A stretch of 64,000 nucleotides of DNA from IMG/VR virus record IMGVR_UViG_3300028394_002659; one strand, given 5' to 3'. Position numbers and translations under genes: made by a program. The stretch is from a virus. The notes beneath the pieces were generated by a model. That model was not told where the DNA came from. It ran no database searches and saw only the letters and a list, made by a program, of their open reading frames with translations. The first letter of the stretch is position 1. Each line of letters starts with the position of its first letter. Positions 10,610 to 23,313 of the stretch are shown here, piece by piece.

Positions 10610-11083
10610 TTAGGCTGCACGTAGACCTTTGAATCGATCTGCGGCATATGAAGCCGCAAACGCATCAGGTTTGACAAAAGGTATAACATTACACACACCC
10701 TTGATGTAACCAATGGCCTGTGAAATCACACAACTTGATCCATGCATTTCGTTGGGATTGATGTCCAGGTGAACTTCAACTTCACGCCCTTCTAGTACTT
10801 CGGCCAGTTTTAGGTACAATTCGCTTACTTTGTACACTTCGGTCATGAGCCGCAAACTGGGGCGACTGGCTCGTTGATCCCAGTCACGCTCACGTTGCAC
10901 TTCACCAAACAATTTGCAACCGTTGTTGCCGTTGATATGAACCACGATAGCCAGCACATAGTCAGCATGCCAAGCACCGTCAACTTTGATACGTTCACTA
11001 TCACAACCAAGATAGATTCGAGTTTCGGGTGTTTGAGTCCGAATGAATTCTGCCACTTGGTCAATGTCTAGTTTTTTCATCAT
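10610..11083 (-). CDS. RNase H-like YkuK family protein
   Basis: IYLGCDS, RLMTEV, EVHLDIN, AASYAAD. Confidence 0.85.
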   Translation of the reverse strand: MMKKLDIDQVAEFIRTQTPETRIYLGCDSERIKVDGAWHADYVLAIVVHINGNNGCKLFGEVQRERDWDQRASRPSLRLMTEVYKVSELYLKLAEVLEGREVEVHLDINPNEMHGSSCVISQAIGYIKGVCNVIPFVKPDAFAASYAADRFKGLRAA

Positions 11084-11450: not shown

Positions 11451-11527
11451 TGGCCGGTCCTGAGAGATTTGAACTCCCAACTTCCAGTTTCGAAGACTGG
11501 CACTCTATCCAATTGAGTTAAGGACCG
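11451..11527 (-). tRNA. tRNA-Arg(TCG)
   Basis: Loop CTTCGAA, CCA. Confidence 0.92.
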
Positions 11528-11532
11528 CTTAA

Positions 11533-11640
11533 CATAAGCAAACACACTACATCCAGCGAACCCATCTGCTGGCTTAGTTATTAATCGCTACAGGGTAACC
11601 GGAACCCTTCGCTGAGGCGTTAGTAATGTGTTTGCTTATG
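11533..11640 (-). ncRNA. Structured RNA A (18-bp closing stem), unknown function
   Basis: CATAAGCAAACACATTAC pairs with GTAGTGTGTTTGCTTATG; internal hairpins; lies between tRNA-Lys and tRNA-Arg. Confidence 0.6.
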
Positions 11641-11712
11641 GTAGGGGTGCTCGGGAACGATCCGAGTTTTACTGGTTAAAAGCCAGTTACTTCACCTTAA
11701 AGTTTCACCCCC
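11639..11712 (-). tRNA. tRNA-Lys(TTT), non-canonical (A8:U14, A54:U58)
   Basis: All four stems pair; loop CTTTTAA; T-loop ATCGTTC; CCA. Confidence 0.85.
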
Positions 11713-11763
11713 GCTATCTTATCACTCTTGTCACTTGTCATGACAGATCTCCTTTTAAAAAAT

Positions 11764-11837
11764 TGGTAGCCAGAACAAGAATTGAACTTGTAATAATCGC
11801 TTATCAAGCGACCGTTATACCATTTAACTATCCGGCT
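11764..11837 (-). tRNA. tRNA-Ile(GAT)
   Basis: Loop TTGATAA, CCA. Confidence 0.9.
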
Positions 11838-12000
11838 ATAAATATGCGTATGATTACCGCTGACGACGCTATGATATTCCTGTCCCAAGAGGCACAAGGT
11901 GTTTATCAACAACGATTTTATTCCACCACAACTCGCAAGTTCACTCTCAATACCATGCTGATCAACCCACCTAAAGAGTTCAAACTTGATACTACGTTTG

Positions 12001-12076
12001 TGGTGCCTCCTCCAGGTTCCGACCCTGGTTCCCTGGATTTTCAGTCCAGTGCTATGACCACATCAGCTAAAGAGGC
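12001..12076 (-). tRNA. tRNA-Phe(GAA), atypical T-loop
   Basis: Loop CTGAAAA; T-loop GTCGGAA; CCA. Confidence 0.88.
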
Positions 12077-12080
12077 GTAA

Positions 12081-12156
12081 TGGTACATCCTGACGGGCTC
12101 GAACCGCCGACAGCCTCGGTGTAAACGAGGAACTCTACCAACTGAGTTAAGGATGC
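12081..12156 (-). tRNA. tRNA-Val(TAC)
   Basis: Loop TTTACAC, CCA. Confidence 0.93.
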
Positions 12157-12161
12157 ATGTT

Positions 12162-12249
12162 TGGCGGAAGCGGTGAGATTCGAACTCACGGTACCTTTCG
12201 ATACGCTGGTTTTCAAGACCAGAGCCATAGACCACTCGACCACACTTCC
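12162..12249 (-). tRNA. tRNA-Ser(TGA)
   Basis: Long variable arm, loop CTTGAAA, CCA. Confidence 0.94.
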
Positions 12250-12255
12250 TAATTT

Positions 12256-12333
12256 TGGAATAGCGGGTGAGATTCGAACTCACGATTTTAGGGATTTGCA
12301 ATCCCTTGCATTTGACCACTCTGCCACCGCTAT
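12256..12333 (-). tRNA. tRNA-Cys(GCA)
   Basis: Loop TTGCAAA, U73, CCA. Confidence 0.92.
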
Positions 12334-12337
12334 ATAT

Positions 12338-12414
12338 TGGTCCGAGTAGTAGGATTCAAACCTACGACCCTCTGGTCCCAAACCAGATGCGCTATCAGGC
12401 TGCGCTATACTCGG
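12338..12414 (-). tRNA. tRNA-Pro(TGG)
   Basis: Loop TTTGGGA, CCA. Confidence 0.93.
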
Positions 12415-12653
12415 TTAATTTTTTTCTTGATCCACATGCCGAACAATGTACCACAGTAGGCACCTGCCAGGGCTGGAATTAATGCCCAGTGATCTTCGGT
12501 GTAGTTGATCACTGCCACACTGGCTGTGAATGTCACAGCCACAGACCACCATGCGGCCATCATGGCACGATCATCCTGAATTGACTTTACAAAGTAAACA
12601 TAAATCAAATCAGTGGCAAACACTGCCGCAAAAGTTATGAAGTAGGTCCACAT
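12405..12653 (-). CDS. small membrane protein within the tRNA array
   Basis: Three hydrophobic segments. Confidence 0.65.
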   Translation of the reverse strand: MWTYFITFAAVFATDLIYVYFVKSIQDDRAMMAAWWSVAVTFTASVAVINYTEDHWALIPALAGAYCGTLFGMWIKKKINRV

Positions 12654-12654
12654 G

Positions 12655-12882
12655 TTATTTCTTGGTTAATGGAGATTCTTGTGTTTTTTCTATCTCCGGC
12701 GGTTCTTCAAATCTTGCATTGCCACCAAGTCCTTTCCAACTGTCTTCTGTGAAGATTCTAATGGGTCGCCAGTGTCGAGCAATGATGTTGTTGATTACAA
12801 CAAGACCAATTACCACAACAACAAAGCCTAGTGCTGTCAAAACACTACCGGCTAGAAACACTGCCGCTTGATCCATGTCCAT
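12655..12882 (-). CDS. small membrane protein within the tRNA array
   Basis: AAGGA RBS, single TM helix. Confidence 0.65.
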   Translation of the reverse strand: MDMDQAAVFLAGSVLTALGFVVVVIGLVVINNIIARHWRPIRIFTEDSWKGLGGNARFEEPPEIEKTQESPLTKK

Positions 12883-12899
12883 AAGTTTTTCCTTAATTT

Positions 12900-12973
12900 T
12901 GGAGCGGGATAGCGGAATCGAACCGCTGACTCTAACTTGGAAGGATAGGGTAATACCATTTTACGAATCCCGC
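12900..12973 (-). tRNA. tRNA-Gly(TCC)
   Basis: Loop CTTCCAA, CCA. Confidence 0.9.
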
Positions 12974-12982
12974 TTGTTGTAT

Positions 12983-13011
12983 ATTATACTGTGTATAGAC
13001 AGTTTAGTCAA
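12983..13011 (-). promoter_or_regulatory. Internal tRNA-array promoter TTGACT-N17-TATAAT
   Basis: Consensus hexamers. Confidence 0.75.
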
Positions 13012-13024
13012 TGACTTTGAATAC

Positions 13025-13098
13025 TGGAGCGGAATACCAGAATCGAACTGGTGACATGACCTTGGCAAGGTCGCGTTTTACCCCTAAACTAATTCCGC
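13025..13098 (-). tRNA. tRNA-Gly(GCC), second copy
   Basis: Loop TTGCCAA, CCA. Confidence 0.92.
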
Positions 13099-13103
13099 AT
13101 AAG

Positions 13104-13179
13104 TGGTGCCCCCACCATGATTCGAACACGGCACCTACTGATTACAAATCAGTTGCTCTACCGAATGAGCTATAGGGGC
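13104..13179 (-). tRNA. tRNA-Thr(TGT)
   Basis: Loop TTTGTAA, CCA. Confidence 0.94.
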
Positions 13180-13185
13180 AAATTT

Positions 13186-13261
13186 TGGCTCCTCAGGGTG
13201 GGATCGAACCACCGACACCTTGATTAACAGTCAAGTGCAACTACCGCTGTGCTACTGAGGA
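13186..13261 (-). tRNA. tRNA-Asn(GTT)
   Basis: Loop CTGTTAA, CCA. Confidence 0.94.
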
Positions 13262-13269
13262 ATAAACTT

Positions 13270-13359
13270 TGGCGGAACGTTAGGGAGTCGAACCCTATCA
13301 ACAGCGTTAACCATTGTACAGATTAGCAATCTGCTGCCTTACCATCCGGCCCACGTTCC
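13270..13359 (-). tRNA. tRNA-Ser(GCT)
   Basis: Long variable arm, loop TTGCTAA, CCA. Confidence 0.9.
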
Positions 13360-13367
13360 TCTATACT

Positions 13368-13396
13368 ATTATATAGTTAACACCTCATGGTGTCAA
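13368..13396 (-). promoter_or_regulatory. Internal tRNA-array promoter TTGACA-N17-TATAAT
   Basis: Perfect consensus, between tRNA-Tyr and tRNA-Ser. Confidence 0.85.
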
Positions 13397-13404
13397 CAGT
13401 TATT

Positions 13405-13490
13405 TGGTGGAGAGTCAGGGATTCGAACCCCGTATACCGTAAGGTGGAAGATTTACAGTCTCCTGAAGTCGCCAATGCTTCTCACTCTCC
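13405..13490 (-). tRNA. tRNA-Tyr(GTA)
   Basis: Variable arm, loop CTGTAAA, CCA; G8. Confidence 0.9.
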
Positions 13491-13494
13491 AATT

Positions 13495-13569
13495 TGGTGG
13501 ACCGTCCCGGGTTCGAACCGGGGACTGAGGCTTGCAAAGCCACTGTGTTCCCAACTATACCAACAGCCC
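13495..13569 (-). tRNA. tRNA-Ala(TGC)
   Basis: G3:U70, loop TTTGCAA, CCA. Confidence 0.92.
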
Positions 13570-13576
13570 AATTATT

Positions 13577-13653
13577 TGGCGACTCCGAAAGGATTTGAAC
13601 CTCTGACATTTGGTTTTGGAGACCAACGTTCTGCCGGACTGAACTACGGAGCC
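13577..13653 (-). tRNA. tRNA-Trp(CCA)
   Basis: Loop CTCCAAA, CCA. Confidence 0.93.
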
Positions 13654-13675
13654 ATCAACACACTGTTGCCAATGT

Positions 13676-13740
13676 GCGTATCGAAACACTCTACATGGAT
13701 GAACCCACTTGCCTTGAGGCCTGAGAATGCTTCGATACGC
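13676..13740 (-). ncRNA. Structured RNA B (17-bp closing stem), related to RNA A
   Basis: GCGTATCGAAGCATTCT pairs with AGAGTGTTTCGATACGC; shares GCCTCA and TGGGTTC..ATGTAG with RNA A. Confidence 0.55.
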
Positions 13741-13839
13741 TCGGTTTTTTTTGTGTACAAAAACACAAGCCATCCCCGAGGCCGCCCATTTGCAGTTTTG
13801 AGTGATACCGGCTCGCGTTGCCTTGCACTTTGATAACGA

Positions 13840-13887
13840 TCATTGAACGTTATTGTGAATCCATTGCCAATACTCTTCTGTTGTCAT
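13840..13887 (-). CDS. 15-aa mini-ORF MTTEEYWQWIHNNVQ
   Basis: Strong AAGGAG RBS 7 nt upstream of the ATG; just downstream of attenuator 1. Confidence 0.45.
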   Translation of the reverse strand: MTTEEYWQWIHNNVQ

Positions 13888-13906
13888 TCTAGTTCTCCTT
13901 AAAAAC

Positions 13907-13976
13907 AAAAAACCCTGGAGTTTTTAGTTCCAGGGTCTTTGAATTAGATACGATTGCGTACTACGTTAAGACCCTG
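13907..13976 (-). terminator. Attenuator 1: terminator (13907-13936) with competing antiterminator arm (13968-13976)
   Basis: ACCCTGGA/TCCAGGGT stem + U-tract; CAGGGTCTT in the last leader codons pairs 9/9 with AAGACCCTG of the terminator 5' arm. Confidence 0.8.
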
Positions 13977-14076
13977 TGTCTCCTAGAATGATTGCTGTTG
14001 CGCGACCATAGGCATGTGACCAGGCAGATGTCTGACTGAACATATTCTTGGGCGACAAACAGAGTTTCGTTTTCAT
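13966..14076 (-). CDS. Leader peptide 1 (36 aa, leaderless): MKTKLCLSPKNMFSQTSAWSHAYGRATAIILGDTGS
   Basis: ATG 7 nt after TATAAT, no SD; last codons and stop overlap the antiterminator arm. Confidence 0.7.
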   Translation of the reverse strand: MKTKLCLSPKNMFSQTSAWSHAYGRATAIILGDTGS

Positions 14077-14083
14077 AGTATCA

Positions 14084-14112
14084 ATTATAGTTTATTTACC
14101 TTTGTGCGTCAA
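14084..14112 (-). promoter_or_regulatory. sigma70-type promoter TTGACG-N17-TATAAT for leader 1
   Basis: Consensus hexamers. Confidence 0.8.
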
Positions 14113-14153
14113 TCATTTTGGCAAACTTTCTTGTTGTATTTACACAACAGATT

Positions 14154-15284
14154 TTATTCACCTATACAGAAGGGTTTGCTGTAGATTGGTGCCCCGGTAT
14201 CTTTTCCAATCATACTGTTGATTGGGTTGATACTGGTTTCTACCAGATGGTTGCAGAAGTCTTTTTCTAATAATAAATTTTTAATGCCTTTTACATAAAG
14301 ATTAGCCACGTCATTGTGCTTCTTTAGCAAAACATCTAATCCAAGATCAAATCCACAAGAAAGTTCGCCATCAATGCCATCAACATTCACGGGGGCCAAT
14401 TCAAATTTGGATTCGGCGCCTTTTTGTGCAAAACTTGCGCCAGCAAATACTTCATTTTGTCTCGATAAGTTTTTTTGCCATATGCTATACGTAGCACTTG
14501 CGATGTTTTTAAATTTGGAACCATCGGGATCTAACCTGGCCTTGCCTGTATTTGCACTCATACGAAGTTTGAGTATTTTTTTAATCATATGACTTTGTTT
14601 GAGTGCCAACATAGGGTCAGTAAAAAAACATTCAATGTTTTCAAAATTCATTGTGCTCAACAAGGTTCTTGCATCATGGCATGAATAATATTTGTTATCT
14701 TTTTGGAATACTCTAGGTTGTTCGTGTCCAGTAATCAAACACCAGGTTGAACCACCGAACTGGTCAGCACAATAGTCCCACATTACAGAGTCCGTGGTTC
14801 CCATGGCAAATTTAGGGATCATTGAAATATTTTGAAAGATCCAATCTTCTCCTGTTACAATTTGTTGTTTGGCCGCAGGATTAAAACGTTCTTTTACAGT
14901 AATTTTGGTCAGTGGGTCATGATGGTTGTTTTTTAGCCAATCCACATATTGTGAATTATTCCAGGGCTCGTACTTGTCGTTGACCCAAATTACAATTTCA
15001 TCAATGTGTAAATTATTGCGTTTGAACACATTGTAGATTGTGTTACTATCTGTACCGCCACTCCACGACAGCATCACATGTTCATATTTGTTTCTTAAAT
15101 TACACGCATGCTGATCCATCAGTTGATCCAAGGACTCAGCAGGGTCTTGTAACCAATTTAGTTGGTCATTCTGTTGGTCGTGACAAACAAACTCAATAGG
15201 AGTTTTGCTTATAAATGCCTCGTATTTTGCAAGTATATGATTGAAAATTATTTTGCCATTAACACGGAAATAGATAGAGGGCAT
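14154..15284 (-). CDS. PP-loop ATP pyrophosphatase family protein, paralog of 18832-19947
   Basis: WSGGTDS; start moved to MPSIYF so it does not overlap the tRNA. Confidence 0.75.
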   Translation of the reverse strand: MPSIYFRVNGKIIFNHILAKYEAFISKTPIEFVCHDQQNDQLNWLQDPAESLDQLMDQHACNLRNKYEHVMLSWSGGTDSNTIYNVFKRNNLHIDEIVIWVNDKYEPWNNSQYVDWLKNNHHDPLTKITVKERFNPAAKQQIVTGEDWIFQNISMIPKFAMGTTDSVMWDYCADQFGGSTWCLITGHEQPRVFQKDNKYYSCHDARTLLSTMNFENIECFFTDPMLALKQSHMIKKILKLRMSANTGKARLDPDGSKFKNIASATYSIWQKNLSRQNEVFAGASFAQKGAESKFELAPVNVDGIDGELSCGFDLGLDVLLKKHNDVANLYVKGIKNLLLEKDFCNHLVETSINPINSMIGKDTGAPIYSKPFCIGE

Positions 15285-15300
15285 TTGTGTAGCGTATGAT

Positions 15301-15374
15301 TGGATGCGGGGGACAGATTCGAACTGCCGATGCACCTGGCTTATGAGACCGGTGTGGTGACCGCCCTCCCCGCG
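15301..15374 (-). tRNA. Atypical initiator-like tRNA(CAT) with reduced D-arm
   Basis: C1:A72 mismatch, CGCGGGG acceptor, loop CTCATAA, TTCGAAT, CCA. Confidence 0.7.
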
Positions 15375-15383
15375 GTATATTTA

Positions 15384-15623
15384 ATGCTCTGCGTCCCCCG
15401 GCGGTAATTATAGTGTATCAGAAATTTCGTCAAGTTGCCCCAACTAGTCTATTCATCACTTACACCCTCCACCCGCTTCCCGACAGGGACCGTTCTCGTA
15501 TTGCTAACGCCGGTTAGGTTGGACCGCTGATTGCTCAGTGAAACTTTGCTGTTTCAGAACCACCCGTGTGTGTCATCACACTTCTCATCGTCTGGGTCAG
15601 ACTATCCAGTGACGCTGGAACGT
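15384..15623 (-). ncRNA. Large multi-stem structured RNA E (about 240 nt), unknown function
   Basis: GC-rich non-coding interval with several hairpins (GTGTG/CACAC, TGAAAC/GTTTCA, CTGA-GCAA-TCAG, CTAAC/GTTAG). Confidence 0.6.
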
Positions 15624-15629
15624 AGGGGA

Positions 15630-15688
15630 GAGGCCACGGTTGCAGGATCTAGTGCTCCGAAGAGGAAGTGTCCAGGCGGTGTGGCCTC
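15630..15688 (-). ncRNA. Small structured RNA G
   Basis: GAGGCCAC/GTGGCCTC closing stem with internal cUUCGg hairpin, just 3' of tRNA-Asp. Confidence 0.45.
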
Positions 15689-15693
15689 AAACT

Positions 15694-15769
15694 TGGCGGT
15701 CTTAGGGGGTAACGATCCCCACTCTTACGGCGTGACAAGCCGTCGTGCGTCCATGAACACTTTAAGACC
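15694..15769 (-). tRNA. tRNA-Asp(GTC), non-canonical (A8:U14, A54:U58)
   Basis: Loop TTGTCAC; T-loop ATCGTTA; CCA. Confidence 0.87.
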
Positions 15770-15772
15770 AAA

Positions 15773-15925
15773 TTTTTATAGTCAAGCACCGAGAATGCCA
15801 ATTTAGGAGTCCGGTGCTTCCGTTCCAAAGCCGATGCAGTTATATCAGGATCAGTCGCCGGCCGCTGTGACCCGAATAGTGTATGCGTCCATACACGATA
15901 CCTTATCGATGCTTGACTATAAAAA
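15773..15925 (-). ncRNA. Structured RNA C (20-bp closing stem), unknown function
   Basis: TTTTTATAGTCAAGCATCGA pairs with TCGGTGCTTGACTATAAAAA; internal GTGTATG-GACG-CATACAC hairpin. Confidence 0.65.
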
Positions 15926-15928
15926 CAA

Positions 15929-16004
15929 TGGTACTCCGTGGGGGAATCGAACCCCTCCTTACCCGCGTGAAAGGCGAGTGTCCTAACCGATAGACGAACG
16001 GAGC
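15929..16004 (-). tRNA. tRNA-Glu(TTC)
   Basis: Loop CTTTCAC, CCA. Confidence 0.92.
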
Positions 16005-16013
16005 ATGTAGTTT

Positions 16014-16216
16014 TACATTGAGGAACCATTGTGGATCTCGTTCTGCTTGGTTTGCGAGGCCAAGTCACCACGGTCATTACTGCCAGACGATCCGCCGCTT
16101 TTCTGGATCTACTTTTTACAGTAGAGAGCCGACTTCATGACTGATAGCAAGTGGACACCCGCCGGTGTCAATTCACTTCTACCAATGCCTCTAACGGGTC
16201 TGGTAACCTCTTTGTA
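16014..16216 (-). ncRNA. Structured RNA D (about 200 nt) with possible pseudoknot
   Basis: Ends pair (TACAAAGAGGTTACCA / TGGTTCCTCAATGTA); nested stems; CTTGG-CCTCGCAAA-CCAAG loop can pair with a downstream CGAG. Confidence 0.6.
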
Positions 16217-16306
16217 TATTTTAATGATCTGTTGCAAGTAGTCTCGATCGACTTTGTTGCTTTGTTAAGTTCTATTGTAGCAGAGTTTCAATTTATGGTC
16301 TAGCAC

Positions 16307-18831: not shown

Positions 18832-19947
18832 TCATGGACCGATACAGTACTCCTTTGACCATGTAAATTTCAAACTGCTAAAACGCATGTCGCCAGATCT
18901 AAACCAGCCGTTGTCCCGTAACCAATTGGTAAATCCAAACTCACTGGTCAAATTATGAAATCCTTTGAGATAGTTTACCGCTGCCGGATTGTTGTCGGAC
19001 AAGTCATGAAGCAGATGTCGATCAGAACTGTGTACATTGCGCCAGTCACCGTGTACCTGTAGTTGCAGTTGATCAAAAGATTCGTTGCCAATTTTTTGTG
19101 TGTGGCTGACTCCGATATAAACTTCGTCGTGTCTTCCGCAAGCAGTGGCCCAGGCACGGTATCCTGCAGGATCTTTGTCCCATTTGGACTCAGCCCAGTC
19201 ATTACTGTACAACGGTTGTGCAGTTTGTTTAATGATGTTTTTAACCGCACGTTTGACCATGTGTGCTTGTTTGATTGCAATCAATGGCTCAAAGAAAAAA
19301 TGTTCAATATAATCATGGCCCATTGTAGGTTGTAGCACCATGCTGAGTTGTCTATGATACCAAGCACCGTCACGATAGATCAGTCTGGGTTTTTCGTAGC
19401 CACCTATGGCTTTCCATGTGTGCCCGGCGTGATTTTTTTCGCACAGAAATTTCACAGCATCTGCAGAACTTGTGTTGCCGTATTTGAGTAGGTCGCCTTT
19501 GTTCTTCCATACCCAGTCTTCGTCGGGCAAATCAATCAGTCGCAGGTCAGTGTCGTGATCATCGTAGCGTGTGATGATTGTGGTTGGATCCCAGTGATTA
19601 TTTTGGATCCAGTATACATTGCGCTCGGGAAACATTTCTGAATCTTCTCCGGCCTTGATGATCAGTTCGTCAATGTGAATATTGTTACGTTTAAAAATGT
19701 TGTAGATAGTATGACTGTCAGTGCCGCCACTCCATAACAGAATCAGTCGCTCATATTTCTCACGCAAGGCAAGAGCATGTTGCGTCATCAAGAAGTCTAG
19801 CGATGCTTCGGGTTCCAGAGTCCAATCAAATTGATCAAACTCATAGTCATAACAGTAAAATTTAAGTTCGTGATTGTTTTTCCAGCAATCTCGCAGGGCT
19901 AGAAACACATTGTTGTAATGTTGCCCGTTTACTTGATATGATACCAT
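18832..19947 (-). CDS. PP-loop ATP pyrophosphatase family protein, paralog of 14154-15284
   Basis: LWSGGTDSHTIYNIFKRNNIHIDE nearly matches the paralog; GYEKPR, EHFF. Confidence 0.75.
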   Translation of the reverse strand: MVSYQVNGQHYNNVFLALRDCWKNNHELKFYCYDYEFDQFDWTLEPEASLDFLMTQHALALREKYERLILLWSGGTDSHTIYNIFKRNNIHIDELIIKAGEDSEMFPERNVYWIQNNHWDPTTIITRYDDHDTDLRLIDLPDEDWVWKNKGDLLKYGNTSSADAVKFLCEKNHAGHTWKAIGGYEKPRLIYRDGAWYHRQLSMVLQPTMGHDYIEHFFFEPLIAIKQAHMVKRAVKNIIKQTAQPLYSNDWAESKWDKDPAGYRAWATACGRHDEVYIGVSHTQKIGNESFDQLQLQVHGDWRNVHSSDRHLLHDLSDNNPAAVNYLKGFHNLTSEFGFTNWLRDNGWFRSGDMRFSSLKFTWSKEYCIGP

Positions 19948-19948
19948 G

Positions 19949-20833
19949 TTATTTTTTAAGTTGATCTCTGTAGTATTCAGTTTCTTTGACGGCCCTGGCA
20001 TTCAAGTCAGCATCTGCTTTGACCACTACAAAACTTCTTTCTGTAAGAGGTTTGGTCAGTTCTGCATCCTGGTTCCATGTTTTGATAATGCTGATCAATT
20101 CTGCATTCTTCAACAAATTGCTGTTGTTGGGAATTGCTGTGGCATACCAAGTCTCAAATTGATATTTTGGCAACACAGTACTCATGGCAGGAATGTCACT
20201 ACGCACAGCCTTGCTGGATGCAAGGAATTTTACTTTGCCTTCTAATCCAGTGTACGCCGCAATCTGATCGTAGCCACAGGGAGTATGACCACCCACAATG
20301 TCCGGAATCATCTGGCCTGTTCCTTTGTAGGGCACTGGTACAAATTTAGTGCCGTAGGTGGAGTTGATTTGTTTGAGTTCGATTTCACCGTGGCTGTTGC
20401 TGACACCACACACAGTTTCTTTTTTCTTTGCTGATTCAATCAGTTCTCGGAACGTTTTGACTTCACCAGATTCGGGAGTGATAAAAACCATTGGGTTGGT
20501 AACAGATGGTCCTAGCAGTTGTGTTTTTGTGGCATAGATGTTTTCTCTATTGAGCAACACATTGGAAAATACAAAGTTTGCAGAACTTGCAACAAATATA
20601 ATATTGTCTCGTTTTTCCACAGCAATGTTCAGAGCAATGTCTCCGTTGGCACCGGGGTGATATACCACCACGTTGTCATGTCCCTTGTTCATCAATGCCT
20701 TTGATAAACTACGTGCAGTGATATCAATTGCACCACCTGGCGGTGTTGGAACAACAATAGTGATTGGGTCTCCGGCAAATACTGTGGCCGAAAATGCCAA
20801 AGCAAAAATGAATTGTGTGAATTTTTTGATCAT
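19949..20833 (-). CDS. Bug/TctC family substrate-binding protein
   Basis: Signal peptide; IVVPTPPGGAIDITAR, PGANG, VPYKGTG. Confidence 0.88.
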   Translation of the reverse strand: MIKKFTQFIFALAFSATVFAGDPITIVVPTPPGGAIDITARSLSKALMNKGHDNVVVYHPGANGDIALNIAVEKRDNIIFVASSANFVFSNVLLNRENIYATKTQLLGPSVTNPMVFITPESGEVKTFRELIESAKKKETVCGVSNSHGEIELKQINSTYGTKFVPVPYKGTGQMIPDIVGGHTPCGYDQIAAYTGLEGKVKFLASSKAVRSDIPAMSTVLPKYQFETWYATAIPNNSNLLKNAELISIIKTWNQDAELTKPLTERSFVVVKADADLNARAVKETEYYRDQLKK

Positions 20834-22626: not shown

Positions 22627-22647
22627 CGAATGGTGCAAGTTGCTTTG

Positions 22648-22719
22648 TGGGACCTACTGGATTCGAACCAGTCCCTTAAGAATTATGAGTTCTCGGCACT
22701 ACCTCTATGCTAAAGTCCC
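22648..22719 (-). tRNA. tRNA with CAT anticodon (Ile2 or Met), CCA not encoded
   Basis: Cloverleaf, loop CTCATAA. Confidence 0.85.
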
Positions 22720-23267
22720 ACAAAACAACCTTCACGGATTTGCTTTATTTCTTTTTCTTTGATTATACACAACTTTTCAGAAAATTGCGACCACTTTGAT
22801 CGATCTCTATCCGTTTCATATCCTTTGACTTCAACATATAAGTCCTTAGACTCAATGTAAAAATCTGGATGATACCACCTATCACCATTCCAAACATATC
22901 TGAATGCCTTTGACGGTCTTTGTGGATTCAGTCCGGCTTCTTTTGCCCACATATAAAAATCAACTTCCCACTGCCCTTGTAGTGTTATTCCGTCAACTAT
23001 TATTTGTTTGGTCCTGCCTCTATTTGATGAACTATACGATTCTGGGTTCTCCTGCACAGCACGTTTCATTGATTCTTGATGCTTGATTCTAAACTCAGGG
23101 TCGTTCCATTGTTTTTTGTTTTGAGCAATAGTAGACTGACGAATACGTTCTCTGCCTGCGTCCGTTAATCCTTCATGTATCCTATCTGGATTTTTCGGGC
23201 ATCTGCGGACATGGTTAGAATAACCAATTTTACTTGTAAACTCTTTCGAGCAATGTAGGCATATCAT
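22710..23267 (-). CDS. Putative free-standing homing endonuclease (Zn finger + PD-(D/E)XK)
   Basis: CxxC...HxxxC N-terminus; YHPDF..YVEVKG; stop codon lies inside the tRNA 5' end. Confidence 0.75.
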   Translation of the reverse strand: MICLHCSKEFTSKIGYSNHVRRCPKNPDRIHEGLTDAGRERIRQSTIAQNKKQWNDPEFRIKHQESMKRAVQENPESYSSSNRGRTKQIIVDGITLQGQWEVDFYMWAKEAGLNPQRPSKAFRYVWNGDRWYHPDFYIESKDLYVEVKGYETDRDRSKWSQFSEKLCIIKEKEIKQIREGCFVGL

Positions 23268-23313
23268 AAAGCACTGGACTCCAATGCTTTTATTTATCAA
23301 AGTCCAGTGCTTT
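23268..23313 (-). promoter_or_regulatory. 13-bp hairpin occluding the SD, with late-promoter-like ATAAATA in the loop
   Basis: AAAGCACTGGACT / AGTCCAGTGCTTT directly before the ATG. Confidence 0.7.

What the first reader, a model, noticed from the sequence alone, without database searches (positions are those of the whole stretch)
11533..15925. Family of cassette RNAs closed by 17-20-bp duplexes, interleaved with tRNAs (RNAs A, B, C)
Three spacers (11533-11640, 13676-13740, 15773-15925) each have a near-perfect terminal helix with an AA(A/G)CA / UG(U/C)UU core and G-U pairs, enclosing a different structured interior. A and B also share GCCUCA just after the 5' arm and UGGGUUC...AUGUAG before the 3' arm, so they look homologous. 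The G-U pairs work only on the minus strand, which supports an RNA-level function. The duplex length fits RNase III substrates. They may be stable small RNAs released by tRNA processing (decoys, antitoxins or RNA anti-defence factors); I cannot match them to a named family.
Basis: partly seen in the sequence, partly recalled or inferred. Interest (0 to 1): 0.72.

Follow-up and report, generated by a model that had tools for sequence, protein, structure and literature searches.

The report
Stem-clamped small RNAs between phage tRNAs
Three gaps in the tRNA operon of an uncultured T4-like giant phage hold real structured RNAs, each closed by a long helix; two use a conserved "clamp" helix that recurs with swappable inner parts in at least 120 related phage contigs, an arrangement I found neither in Rfam nor in the papers searched and whose function is unknown.

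Summary
A, B and C each end in a 17-21 bp helix on the tRNA strand (fold z -4.6 to -6.8), and none matches Rfam even at E<=10.

A and B belong to a widespread clamp-cassette family. It is an ~18 bp sequence-conserved helix with core AARCA/UGYUU. In type I (A) the helix starts at the CCA of one tRNA and usually ends at base +1 of the next. In type II (B) it lies before the first tRNA of a sub-cluster. One scan found the type-I clamp in at least 120 IMG/VR contigs. Its unconstrained positions covary. The 66 distinct copies carry 55 unrelated inner parts ("cargo"). In one relative, A's and B's sites are plain hairpins.

C is a separate, strongly conserved 153-nt RNA with a related closing helix; 11 of its pairs have compensatory changes (0/500 shuffles).

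Most likely these are hairpin-closed, exonuclease-resistant small RNAs released by ordinary tRNA end-processing. A role for RNase III is possible but untested. Cargo function is unknown.

The nearest analogues are T4 RNAC/RNAD and the intervening segment of permuted tmRNA genes.

Earlier follow-ups of this scan reported the same phenomenon on other phage DNA; I re-derived it independently here.

The parts
11533..11640 (-). RNA A: type-I clamp cassette between tRNA-Lys(ttt) and tRNA-Arg(tcg)
   Evidence: MFE -41.8 kcal/mol, z -4.63. Orthologue at L245:8240-8350. Plain-hairpin orthologue at L002:12356-12390.
11623..11640 (-). A, 5' clamp arm (CAUAAGCAAACACAUUAC). Its first two bases are the CA of the tRNA-Lys CCA end.
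   Evidence: 18-bp uninterrupted helix. tRNA-Lys ends at 11639. The family rule, clamp CCA = tRNA CCA, held in 88 of 88 cases.
11551..11622 (-). A cargo, 72 nt. Three hairpins: 11610-11619, 11592-11608 and 11553-11572. Two copies of GGGUUC..UGUAG.
   Evidence: Fold. Hairpin 3 keeps pairing through two double changes in L245 (CCAGC/GCUGG against GUAGC/GCUAC). Motif census.
11533..11550 (-). A, 3' clamp arm (GUAGUGUGUUUGCUUAUG), followed by a 5-nt linker to tRNA-Arg
13676..13740 (-). RNA B: type-II (leader) clamp cassette, 22 nt before tRNA-Trp, the first tRNA of a sub-cluster
   Evidence: MFE -30.1 kcal/mol, z -6.77. Orthologues in L048, L102, L133, L035 and L002.
13724..13740 (-). B, 5' clamp arm (GCGUAUCGAAGCAUUCU)
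   Evidence: Arm pairs covary among orthologues (UAUCG../..CGAUA, UAUUA../..UAAUA), and L002 has a 2-bp insertion in both arms.
13693..13723 (-). B cargo, 31 nt: a variable first hairpin plus the conserved hairpin GUGGGUUCAUCCAUG
   Evidence: The first hairpin is replaced or absent in relatives, while the second is invariant.
13691..13710 (-). Invariant 20-nt motif AAGUGGGUUCAUCCAUGUAG, running into the 3' arm
   Evidence: Identical in the window, L048, L102 and L133. L035 keeps the hairpin but lacks the leading AA and has one change, AUGAAG.
13676..13692 (-). B, 3' clamp arm (AGAGUGUUUCGAUACGC)
15772..15926 (-). RNA C: conserved 153-155-nt structured RNA filling the gap between tRNA-Glu and tRNA-Asp
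   Evidence: MFE -56.9 kcal/mol, z -5.26. Ten distinct homologues, 99.8% of cells paired, 11 pairs with changes on both sides, 0/500 shuffles reach this.
15906..15926 (-). C, 5' arm of the 21-bp closing helix (GUUUUUAUAGUCAAGCAUCGA)
   Evidence: Four pairs of this helix show compensatory change.
15772..15792 (-). C, 3' arm of the closing helix
15793..15905 (-). C interior. Hairpin P2 (GUGUAUG-GACG-CAUACAC) and helix P3 (GGGUCA../..UGAUCC) covary. Conserved single-stranded runs include GGACUCCUAAAUUGGCAU.
11639..11712 (-). tRNA-Lys(ttt), whose CCA starts clamp A
   Evidence: tRNA-Lys is the upstream neighbour of 40 of 61 type-I clamps.
11451..11527 (-). tRNA-Arg(tcg), downstream of A
13577..13653 (-). 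tRNA-Trp, downstream of B
15929..16004 (-). tRNA-Glu, upstream of C
15694..15769 (-). tRNA-Asp, which follows C in every homologue whose downstream flank I read (13 of 13)

Best explanation
A, B and C are transcribed-strand RNA modules of the tRNA operons of a ~345-kb-class, T4-type freshwater phage.

A and B are members of a clamp-cassette family. It is an ~18 bp helix of conserved sequence (consensus CCAUAUAAAAACACAUU ... AGUGUGUUUCUAUAUGG, core AARCA/UGYUU). It has one conserved A.C mismatch and one frequent U.G wobble, and it carries an exchangeable small structured cargo at its apex.

In type I (A) the helix begins with the CCA of the upstream tRNA. It usually ends at bases +1/+2 of the next tRNA, so the whole spacer is one hairpin. 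In type II (B) a sister clamp lies in the leader before the first tRNA of a sub-cluster. C is a distinct, strongly conserved RNA closed by a related 21-bp helix.

Inferred mechanism: the polycistronic transcript is cut by RNase P at the 5' end of the downstream tRNA and by the 3'-end maturation nucleases at the CCA of the upstream tRNA. This frees each spacer as a nearly blunt hairpin-closed RNA. Such an RNA offers no single-stranded end to exonucleases or to 5'-end-dependent RNase E, so it should accumulate as a stable small RNA. The clamp also keeps the cargo from misfolding with the tRNAs. Where cassettes lie in tandem without a tRNA between them, a double-strand-specific cut (host RNase III) would be needed to separate them.

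Shown: the helices, their strand, conservation and covariation, the exact junctions with tRNA ends, cargo turnover, and the absence of a known family. Inferred: transcription as part of the tRNA precursor, the nucleases involved, stability, and any trans-acting role of the cargo.
For: - Helices and strand asymmetry.
- No Rfam match at E<=10; none in relatives either.
- Relative L002 keeps C (93.6% identity, compensatory changes), but has plain hairpins at A's and B's sites, with a compensatory G-C to A-U change and a 2-bp insertion in both arms.
- In the 120 loci, the clamp CCA is the tRNA 3' CCA in 88 of 88 cases. The next tRNA starts at -2/-1 of the clamp end in 44 of 65.
- Positions the pattern did not constrain covary. 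Position 7 is paired in 64/66 with 3 pair types; position 18 is paired in 53/66 with 7 types; 0/1000 shuffles reach either.
- 66 distinct elements fall into 55 cargo clusters. The same cargo occurs after different tRNAs.
- Cargo orientation is never inverted (0 reverse matches against 26 direct).
- MFE is lower on the tRNA strand in 45 of 68 elements, p=0.0014.
- The same clamp closes the intervening segment of the permuted tmRNA gene in L002 and L025/L026. That segment is known to be removed by tRNA-processing enzymes (PMC11915505).
- A's cargo hairpin 3 shows two compensatory pairs in L245.
- B's 20-nt motif is invariant in four phages.
- C: 99.8% paired, 11 pairs changed on both sides, covariation 0.251 against 0.082, 0/500 shuffles; slid controls <=0.058.
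- Sigma-70-like promoters head each sub-cluster, and no terminator-like site lies at A, B or C on this strand.
Against: - There are no expression or end-mapping data, so release and stability are inferred.
- Most tRNA-tRNA junctions in the same arrays have 2-10 nt spacers without clamps, so the clamp is not needed for processing as such.
- Cargo is only slightly more structured than shuffled sequence (mean z -0.44) and turns over fast. Much of it could therefore be neutral filler.
- At consensus level each strand has one wobble and one mismatch, so strand asymmetry is modest.
- Tandem cassettes such as L037/G001 and L039 cannot be separated by tRNA-end processing alone.
- The strong conservation of the clamp's primary sequence is not explained by a purely structural role.
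Confidence: 0.6

Rival explanations
1. The clamps are RNase III processing sites, punctuation of the tRNA precursor like the stems that flank 16S and 23S rRNA. They are cleaved by host RNase III, and the cargo is tolerated filler at the hairpin apex with no function of its own.
For: - Helix length of 17-22 bp.
- Cargo-less versions exist at the same sites.
- Cargo turns over fast and has only a weak structure signal.
- Tandem cassettes need a cut in double-stranded RNA.
- From my own memory, not checked here: T4 species 1 RNA of the tRNA cluster is an in-vitro RNase III substrate (1970s literature).
Against: - The relatives encode no RNase III, and nothing in the sequence is diagnostic of host RNase III.
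- The helix ends coincide exactly with the tRNA ends. That fit is unnecessary for a staggered RNase III cut inside the helix.
- Some cargo is clearly under selection: C, B's invariant motif, A's hairpin 3, and cargo clusters shared between phages.
- A conserved A.C mismatch and conserved primary sequence go beyond the needs of a generic double-stranded RNA site.
Confidence: 0.2
2. The clamps are DNA-level elements: inverted-repeat recombination sites or MITE-like mobile inserts, comparable to integron attC sites or to the promoter/stem-loop cassettes of T4-type phages. On this view they shuffle tRNA genes and inserts between phages, and RNA folding is incidental.
For: - tRNA order and cassette neighbours are reshuffled between close relatives.
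- The same cargo occurs after different tRNAs.
- Conserved terminal repeats with a variable centre and a conserved mismatch resemble attC architecture.
- At consensus level the two strands are equivalent.
Against: - The boundaries are exact at CCA and at +1, with no target-site duplication or leftover spacer.
- Cargo is never inverted.
- Folding is better on the tRNA strand (p=0.0014).
- The clamp also lies in the tmRNA intervening segment, which is an RNA-processing context.
- I did not search for an integrase or transposase.
Confidence: 0.1
3. The cassettes are decayed or truncated tRNA or tRNA-like genes: pseudogenes, or Y-RNA-like tRNA mimics with a long closing stem.
For: - GUUC is enriched in cargo (17 of 55 against 8.2 +/- 2.6; 1 of 500 shuffles reaches it). 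Some cargo ends in a T-arm-like hairpin such as GGUUCGAAUCC.
- T4 RNAC carries a T-arm.
- A tRNA-Met at 22647-22719 sits inside a 19-bp extended stem.
Against: - ARAGORN and the Rfam tRNA and YrlA models do not hit A, B or C. The only YrlA hit is 28 bits against a cut-off of 69 and lies on true tRNAs.
- The GGGUUC hairpins of A and B do not have the U54/A58 arrangement of a T-loop (read from the sequence).
- No Ro/TROVE protein in the window's contig or in two ~99% complete relatives.
- Most cargo has no tRNA-like feature.
Confidence: 0.06
4. The hairpins are transcription terminators or attenuators inside the tRNA array.
For: In bacterial genomes the same pattern mostly picks up A-tract/GC-stem/U-tract hairpins, some directly after tRNA genes (19 of 72 hits lie within 30 nt of a tRNA end), above all in CPR bacteria.
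Against: - The stems of A, B and C are AU/GU-rich, and no U-run follows them. A tRNA follows within 2-22 nt.
- The terminator scan finds nothing at A, B or C on the transcribed strand.
Confidence: 0.03

Closest known systems
Bacteriophage T4 RNAC and RNAD (species 1 and 2 stable RNAs of the tRNA gene cluster)
   Same: They are small stable non-coding RNAs encoded among the tRNA genes of a T4-type phage and made from the tRNA region. Their function is still unknown (T4 annotation; PMC3014915; PMC9697503). The window's phage has a T4-type Gp23 capsid gene.
   Different: There is no sequence similarity (best BLAST E 0.07 on an 11-mer). The architecture also differs. RNAC folds with a short terminal helix, a true T-arm and long internal hairpins. 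RNAD is barely structured (z -0.83). T4 has no conserved clamp and no cargo exchange.
Intervening segment of circularly permuted (two-piece) tmRNA genes
   Same: It is a segment lying between a CCA 3' end and a tRNA-like 5' end, and it is removed by tRNA-processing enzymes (PMC11915505). In relatives L002 and L025/L026 this segment is itself a clamp cassette of the same family.
   Different: A and C lie between two separate tRNAs, not inside one RNA gene. The window's own tmRNA segment is only a short hairpin without the clamp consensus. I found no description of a conserved clamp with exchangeable cargo for tmRNA genes.
RNase III processing stems of rRNA operons and intervening sequences of 23S rRNA
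   Same: Long helices formed by sequences flanking, or inserted into, a stable RNA. They are excised from a polycistronic precursor, and the inserted material is variable (my own knowledge).
   Different: Here the helix encloses the discarded or released part rather than the functional RNA. The boundaries coincide with tRNA ends. RNase III cleavage was not tested.
GOLLD and ROOL RNAs (large ornate RNAs next to tRNA genes in phages)
   Same: Phage-encoded structured RNAs of unknown function adjacent to, or enclosing, tRNA genes. GOLLD (RF02032) occurs in three of the clamp-bearing contigs scanned: L057, L059 and L069.
   Different: They are much larger (400-800 nt) and have a single conserved architecture. 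A, B and C do not match them.
YrlA / bacterial Y RNAs
   Same: A long stem formed by the 5' and 3' ends closes a structured module that can mimic tRNA. They are also found in phages (my own knowledge).
   Different: The RF02553 model does not hit A, B or C, and there is no Ro/TROVE gene.
tRNA-linked release of other RNAs: the MHV68 tRNA-miRNA units and the synthetic polycistronic tRNA-gRNA design
   Same: These work the same way: tRNA end-processing liberates the RNA placed next to a tRNA (my own knowledge; not tested here).
   Different: One is a eukaryotic virus and the other an engineered system. Neither has a shared closing helix.

Membership tests
Any Rfam 15 family | Covariance-model score at or above the family's gathering threshold | tested here: not met
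   No match on A, B or C at gathering threshold or at E<=10. Only tRNA and tmRNA matches were listed in relatives L002, L024 and L029-L031.
Phage tRNA-operon clamp cassettes, type I (informal family defined in this scan) | Closing helix with paired core AARCA / UGYUU and flanking AU-rich arms | tested here: met
   A has ..UAAGCAAACACAUUAC / GUAGUGUGUUUGCUUA... The family consensus comes from 66 distinct elements.
Phage tRNA-operon clamp cassettes, type I (informal family defined in this scan) | The helix starts with the CCA of the upstream tRNA | tested here: met
   A's helix starts with the CA of the tRNA-Lys CCA. The rule held in 88 of 88 family members.
Phage tRNA-operon clamp cassettes, type I (informal family defined in this scan) | The helix ends at or within a few nt of the next tRNA's 5' end | tested here: met
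   A has a 5-nt linker to tRNA-Arg. In the family, 44 of 65 abut directly and 21 have 3-20 nt between.
Phage tRNA-operon clamp cassettes, type I (informal family defined in this scan) | Exact match to the scan pattern CCATATNNAARCA...TGYTTNNATATGG | tested here: not met
   A reads CCATAAGCAAACA... It is a diverged copy and was not retrieved by the pattern. It shares this form with its orthologue L245.
Phage tRNA-operon clamp cassettes, type II (leader clamp; informal) | GAGCGUAUYR-AARCA-UUCU ... AGAG-UGYUU-YRAUAC helix about 20 nt before the first tRNA of a sub-cluster, with variable cargo | tested here: met
   B and its counterparts in L002, L035, L038, L040, L042, L048, L102, L133, G001 and G003, with cargo of 3 to 47 nt.
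C RNA (unnamed conserved family) | 21-bp closing helix, hairpin P2 with GACG loop, helix P3, conserved GGACUCCUAAAUNGGCAU, next to tRNA-Asp | tested here: met
   13 further contigs carry it. Alignment and covariation.
T4 RNAC/RNAD | Sequence or secondary-structure similarity to T4 rnaC or rnaD | tested here: not met
   BLAST; folds.
T4 RNAC/RNAD | Encoded inside the tRNA gene cluster of a T4-type phage | tested here: met
RNase III substrates | Roughly two turns of near-perfect double-stranded RNA | tested here: inconclusive
   17-21 bp in A, B and C. The family helix is 18 bp with one conserved mismatch. The length is compatible but not diagnostic.
RNase III substrates | Cleavage by RNase III | not testable with these tools
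   This needs an enzyme assay or an rnc mutant. The phage encodes no RNase III.
YrlA / Y RNA | Match to RF02553 and a linked Ro (TROVE) protein | tested here: not met
Intrinsic terminators | GC-rich stem directly followed by a U-run | tested here: not met
   sequence.

The most novel reading that the evidence does not exclude
The clamp is a general expression socket. A clade of giant freshwater phages would use one conserved helix, processed by the host's tRNA machinery, to produce a fast-evolving repertoire of stable small RNAs. The hypervariable cargo, most often lodged right after tRNA-Lys(UUU), would act in an arms race with the host, for example as decoys or inhibitors of tRNA-targeting or RNA-sensing defence nucleases. 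New RNAs would be acquired by recombination within the clamp, as an RNA counterpart of integron cassettes.
Probability: 0.2. Interest if true: 0.9.

Novelty: new variant of a known kind. Interest (0 to 1): 0.7.

Why it matters
Small RNAs made from phage tRNA operons have been known since T4 RNAC and RNAD, and their role is still unexplained after fifty years.

This case has features that make the question testable. There is a sequence-conserved helix present in at least 120 phage contigs. Its junctions with tRNA ends are exact. Its inner parts are exchanged freely between phages. And there is at least one strongly conserved companion RNA, C.

If the model holds, it describes a natural and portable way to release stable RNAs of any sequence from tRNA transcripts. 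It would also supply a large untapped set of phage small RNAs whose turnover hints at conflict with the host.

It also links the intervening segment of split tmRNA genes to tRNA spacers as one kind of processed element.

Tried and rejected
1. Rfam, at gathering threshold and at E<=10, on the window and on relatives: nothing on A, B or C.
2. The first motif scan (GCCTCA..TGGGTTC..ATGTAG) of IMG/VR gave 21 hits, about the number I estimate by chance. None had clamp arms or similarity to A or B. I dropped it.
3. The INPHARED megablast found only tRNA-sized matches. There is no cultured close relative.
4. Phage-encoded RNase III: absent from the window's contig and from four relatives, two of them ~99% complete.
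5. Y RNA/Ro idea: no TROVE gene and no YrlA hit.
6. Terminator idea: no match on the transcribed strand.
7. T-loop mimicry. GUUC is enriched in cargo (17 of 55 against 8.2 expected), but the hairpins of A and B lack the U54/A58 arrangement and most cargo has no such motif. I kept this only as a minor rival.
8. The DUF458 RNase H-like gene inside the array as a clamp-specific nuclease. It lies in the tRNA arrays of all relatives. It lies equally in the array of the cultured Stenotrophomonas phage DLP_6, where I found no clamp. So it goes with tRNA arrays, not with clamps.
9. Bacterial genomes: 72 pattern hits in 596 Gb, scattered across phyla. Most are terminator-like A-tract/GC-stem/U-tract hairpins without cargo. 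These are not the same element.
10. Literature searches found no description of the clamp. The 1970s T4 papers on species 1 RNA and RNase III are not in the library, so I cite them from memory only.
11. A strict clamp pattern on whole relatives was too narrow to be useful.

Full report
**Context.** The window is the minus strand of an IMG/VR virus contig of 148.9 kb, estimated 43% complete. It carries 25 tRNA genes and a beta-proteobacterial-type permuted tmRNA, all on the window's minus strand. It also has a T4-type Gp23 capsid gene. Two nearly complete relatives are about 345 kb. No cultured phage is close; only tRNA-sized matches were found.

**Checking the observation.** On the minus strand:
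- A (11533-11640) has an 18-bp uninterrupted closing helix with one G-U and a 72-nt interior.
- B (13676-13740) has 17 bp with two G-U and a 31-nt interior.
- C (15772-15926) has 21 bp with two G-U and a 113-nt interior.

Fold z-scores are -4.63, -6.77 and -5.26, and no shuffle folds as well. The plus-strand versions of A and B fold worse.

In the whole 149-kb contig, only eight uninterrupted helices of at least 17 bp with at most three G-U exist on this strand. Six lie in the tRNA zone. Four of those (A, B, C and a hairpin at 23268-23313) carry AAGCA in the 5' arm paired to UGCUU or UGUUU. AAGCA occurs about once per 590 nt, so this is far more than chance by my own estimate. The motif GGGUUC-N-[AC]UGUAG occurs three times in the contig: twice in A and once in B. 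No Rfam family matches A, B or C even at E<=10.

**Relatives: what is conserved.** A PP-loop protein gene lies between C and B. I used it, and then a motif from C, to fetch related loci.

In the closest relative, L002, C is 93.6% identical with compensatory changes. B's site holds a plain 16-18 bp hairpin with no interior. Relative to the window, its arms carry a G-C to A-U compensatory change and a 2-bp insertion in both arms. A's site, after tRNA-Lys, holds a plain 35-nt hairpin.

A metagenome contig, L035, has B with only the second inner hairpin. L048, L102 and L133 have B with a different or altered first hairpin. They keep an invariant 20-nt stretch, AAGUGGGUUCAUCCAUGUAG.

After tRNA-Lys, the two complete relatives G001 and G003 have the same clamp as A but entirely different interiors of 76 and 84 nt. 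A's own interior has one orthologue, L245. There the third hairpin keeps pairing through two double substitutions, CCAGC/GCUGG to GUAGC/GCUAC.

**The clamp family.** From these cases I derived a consensus, CCAUAU-NN-AARCA ... UGYUU-NN-AUAUGG. I scanned IMG/VR for it with 40-70 nt between the cores. Of the 120 loci, 114 hold three or more tRNAs, with a median of 14.5.

- Wherever an upstream tRNA is called, the clamp's CCA is that tRNA's own 3' CCA (88 of 88).
- In 44 of 65 cases the final GG of the clamp are bases +1 and +2 of the next tRNA. The helix therefore spans the whole spacer.
- The upstream tRNA is tRNA-Lys(UUU) in 40 of 61 cases.
- Positions that the pattern left free covary. Position 7 is paired in 64 of 66 distinct elements with three pair types. 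Position 18 is paired in 53 of 66 with seven types. No shuffle in 1000 reaches either value.
- Position 8 is a conserved A.C (or C.A) mismatch in 43 of 66. Position 16 is a U.G wobble in 40 of 66.
- The 66 distinct elements fall into 55 cargo clusters.
- The same cargo can follow different tRNAs, and the same site can hold many different cargoes.
- Cargo is never found inverted: 0 reverse matches against 26 direct.
- Folding energy is lower on the tRNA strand in 45 of 68 elements (p=0.0014).
- Cargo GC is about 50%, against 44.5% for the contig.
- Cargo is only slightly more structured than shuffles, with mean z -0.44.

A sister clamp (type II, B-like: GAGCGUAUYR-AARCA-UUCU ... AGAG-UGYUU-YRAUAC) always lies about 20 nt before the first tRNA of a sub-cluster. 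Its arm pairs covary, and its cargo ranges from 3 to 47 nt.

The type-I clamp also closes the intervening segment of the permuted tmRNA gene in L002 and L025/L026, starting at the CCA of the acceptor piece. The window's own tmRNA has only a short hairpin there.

**C.** Thirteen further contigs carry C. Ten distinct sequences align well.
- On the consensus structure, 99.8% of cells pair.
- 11 of 44 pairs have changes on both sides.
- The covariation score is 0.251, against 0.082 in shuffles (0 of 500 reach it) and at most 0.058 in slid controls.
- Compensatory changes occur in the closing helix (4 pairs), in hairpin P2 (4) and in helix P3 with its inner helix (3).

tRNA-Asp follows C in all 13 homologues whose downstream flank I read. 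Its 5' neighbour varies: it can be tRNA-Glu, a type-I cassette, or the end of a larger structured RNA. So modules are shuffled as units, and cassettes can lie in tandem. By my own by-eye alignment, C's closing helix resembles the type-I clamp at 9 of 16 arm positions, including AAGCA/UGCUU. It is otherwise distinct.

**How it most likely works.**

Shown:
- the helices and their strand preference;
- selection for pairing;
- the exact junctions with tRNA ends;
- conservation of the clamp together with cargo turnover;
- conservation of C.

Also relevant: sigma-70-like promoters head each sub-cluster, and no terminator-like site lies at A, B or C on the transcribed strand.

Inferred:
- The elements are part of the polycistronic tRNA precursors.
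- RNase P cutting at +1 of the downstream tRNA, together with 3'-end maturation at the upstream CCA, frees the spacer as a hairpin with at most a 1-nt overhang.
- Such an RNA has no single-stranded end for exonucleases or RNase E, so it should be stable.

This is the route known for the intervening segment of permuted tmRNA genes (PMC11915505), which in these phages is the same kind of cassette.

Tandem cassettes, and B, which has no tRNA on its 5' side, would need another cut. Host RNase III is the obvious candidate, since the phages encode none.

The conserved primary sequence, the fixed A.C mismatch and the U.G wobble suggest a specific reader (a protein or a nuclease) or frequent recombination within the clamp. 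I cannot tell which. The function of the cargo is unknown. C, the B motif and several shared cargo clusters are under selection. Much other cargo may be neutral.

**Rivals.**
- Pure RNase III punctuation with junk cargo (0.2).
- DNA-level recombination or mobile elements (0.1). Against this: the exact boundaries, the cargo that is never inverted, and the strand asymmetry.
- Degenerate tRNA or Y-RNA-like mimics (0.06). Against this: no model hit and no Ro gene.
- Terminators (0.03).

**Comparison with what is known.** T4 RNAC and RNAD are the nearest biological analogue. They are small stable RNAs of the tRNA cluster with unknown function. They share neither sequence nor architecture with A, B or C. 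GOLLD occurs in some clamp-bearing contigs but is a different RNA. I found no paper describing the clamp.

Earlier follow-up reports of this scan, on other phage genomes, describe the same clamp-cassette arrangement and the tmRNA link. I treated them as leads. I re-derived the consensus, the prevalence, the junction rule, the covariation and the tmRNA case from my own searches.

**Verdict.** These are real RNA elements of a widespread family absent from Rfam and from the papers I searched. The mechanism of release is plausible but untested, and the function is open.

Noticed in passing
window 22637-22731 (-): The tRNA-Met(cat) at 22647-22719 has its acceptor stem extended to a 19-bp uninterrupted helix by pairing of leader and trailer (GGUUGUUUUGUGGGACUU / AGGUCCCACAAAGCAACU). 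The 3' side has no CCA. It directly follows an endonuclease-like ORF (22740-23210, phrog_15137). It may be a tRNA lodged as cargo in a clamp-like helix, or a tRNA-like element.
   Followed up: partly
window 23268-23313 (-): An 18-bp hairpin with a 10-nt loop. Its 5' arm starts AAAGCA and it pairs to UGCUUU. It shares the core of the clamps but lies after a protein gene, not next to a tRNA.
   Followed up: no
window 10613-11083 (-): A DUF458 / RNase H-like gene (PF04308, E 2.6e-16; phrog_11311, function unknown) lies inside the tRNA array. It keeps that position in five related contigs. In the cultured Stenotrophomonas phage DLP_6 it lies directly after tRNA-Lys(TTT). Homologues occur in other cultured phages, including Vibrio nt-1-like, Ruegeria DSS3P8-like and Xanthomonas phages. 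It is a candidate tRNA-array-associated nuclease, but it is not specific to clamps.
   Followed up: partly
window 14157-15284 (-) and 18835-20001 (-): Two paralogous PP-loop (SGGxDS) proteins, 34% identical, flank the tRNA/tmRNA region. They have no Pfam hit and only a weak PAPS-reductase-like PHROG hit. They may be tRNA-modifying enzymes.
   Followed up: partly
window 15380-15690 (-) and 16010-16260 (-): Two further gene-free stretches of about 310 and 250 nt, next to tRNA-Asp and tRNA-Glu, look like structured RNAs. They have no Rfam match. The 3' end of the first (..GGGGGAYGCAGAGCAU) recurs directly before C or before a clamp in other phages, so it behaves as another shuffled module.
   Followed up: partly
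window 15300-15375 (-): A tRNA-like sequence with a CAU anticodon loop, a T-arm (GCAGUUCGAAUCUGU) and a GCGGGG/CCCCGC acceptor stem. ARAGORN did not call it. Its orthologue is called as tRNA-Met in L035 and L036.
   Followed up: partly
L002:11893-11971 (+): An uncalled tRNA-Asn-like gene (anticodon loop CUGUUAA, acceptor UCCGCAG/..GCGGAGCCA) with an unusual D region lies in the Tyr-Ser spacer of the relative. L031:12336-12431 likewise hides an uncalled tRNA-Tyr.
   Followed up: no
L184, L192, L196, L197, L210, L214 and others (bacterial genome contigs): In CPR bacteria (Saccharibacteria and Paceibacterota among others), hairpins of the form CCAUAUAAAAACAC-[GC stem-loop]-GUGUUUUUAUAUGG start at the CCA of tRNA genes. 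They look like bidirectional terminators that pair with the CCA. The likeness to the outer part of the phage clamp was largely forced by my pattern.
   Followed up: partly
L057:70-535, L059:503-965, L069:1864-2326: GOLLD RNA (RF02032, 202-212 bits) with an embedded tRNA occurs in three clamp-bearing phage contigs. L061:6941-7138 holds a group I intron.
   Followed up: no
L024:19081-19284, L024:19689-19820, L029:14252-14526: More distant relatives have other inter-tRNA RNAs, each closed by its own 13-20 bp terminal helix without the AARCA core (for example UACUAAUAAGUUUGGGCAUA/UAUGCCCAAACUUAUUAGUA around 235 nt). Stem-closed spacers are therefore more general than the clamp consensus.
   Followed up: partly
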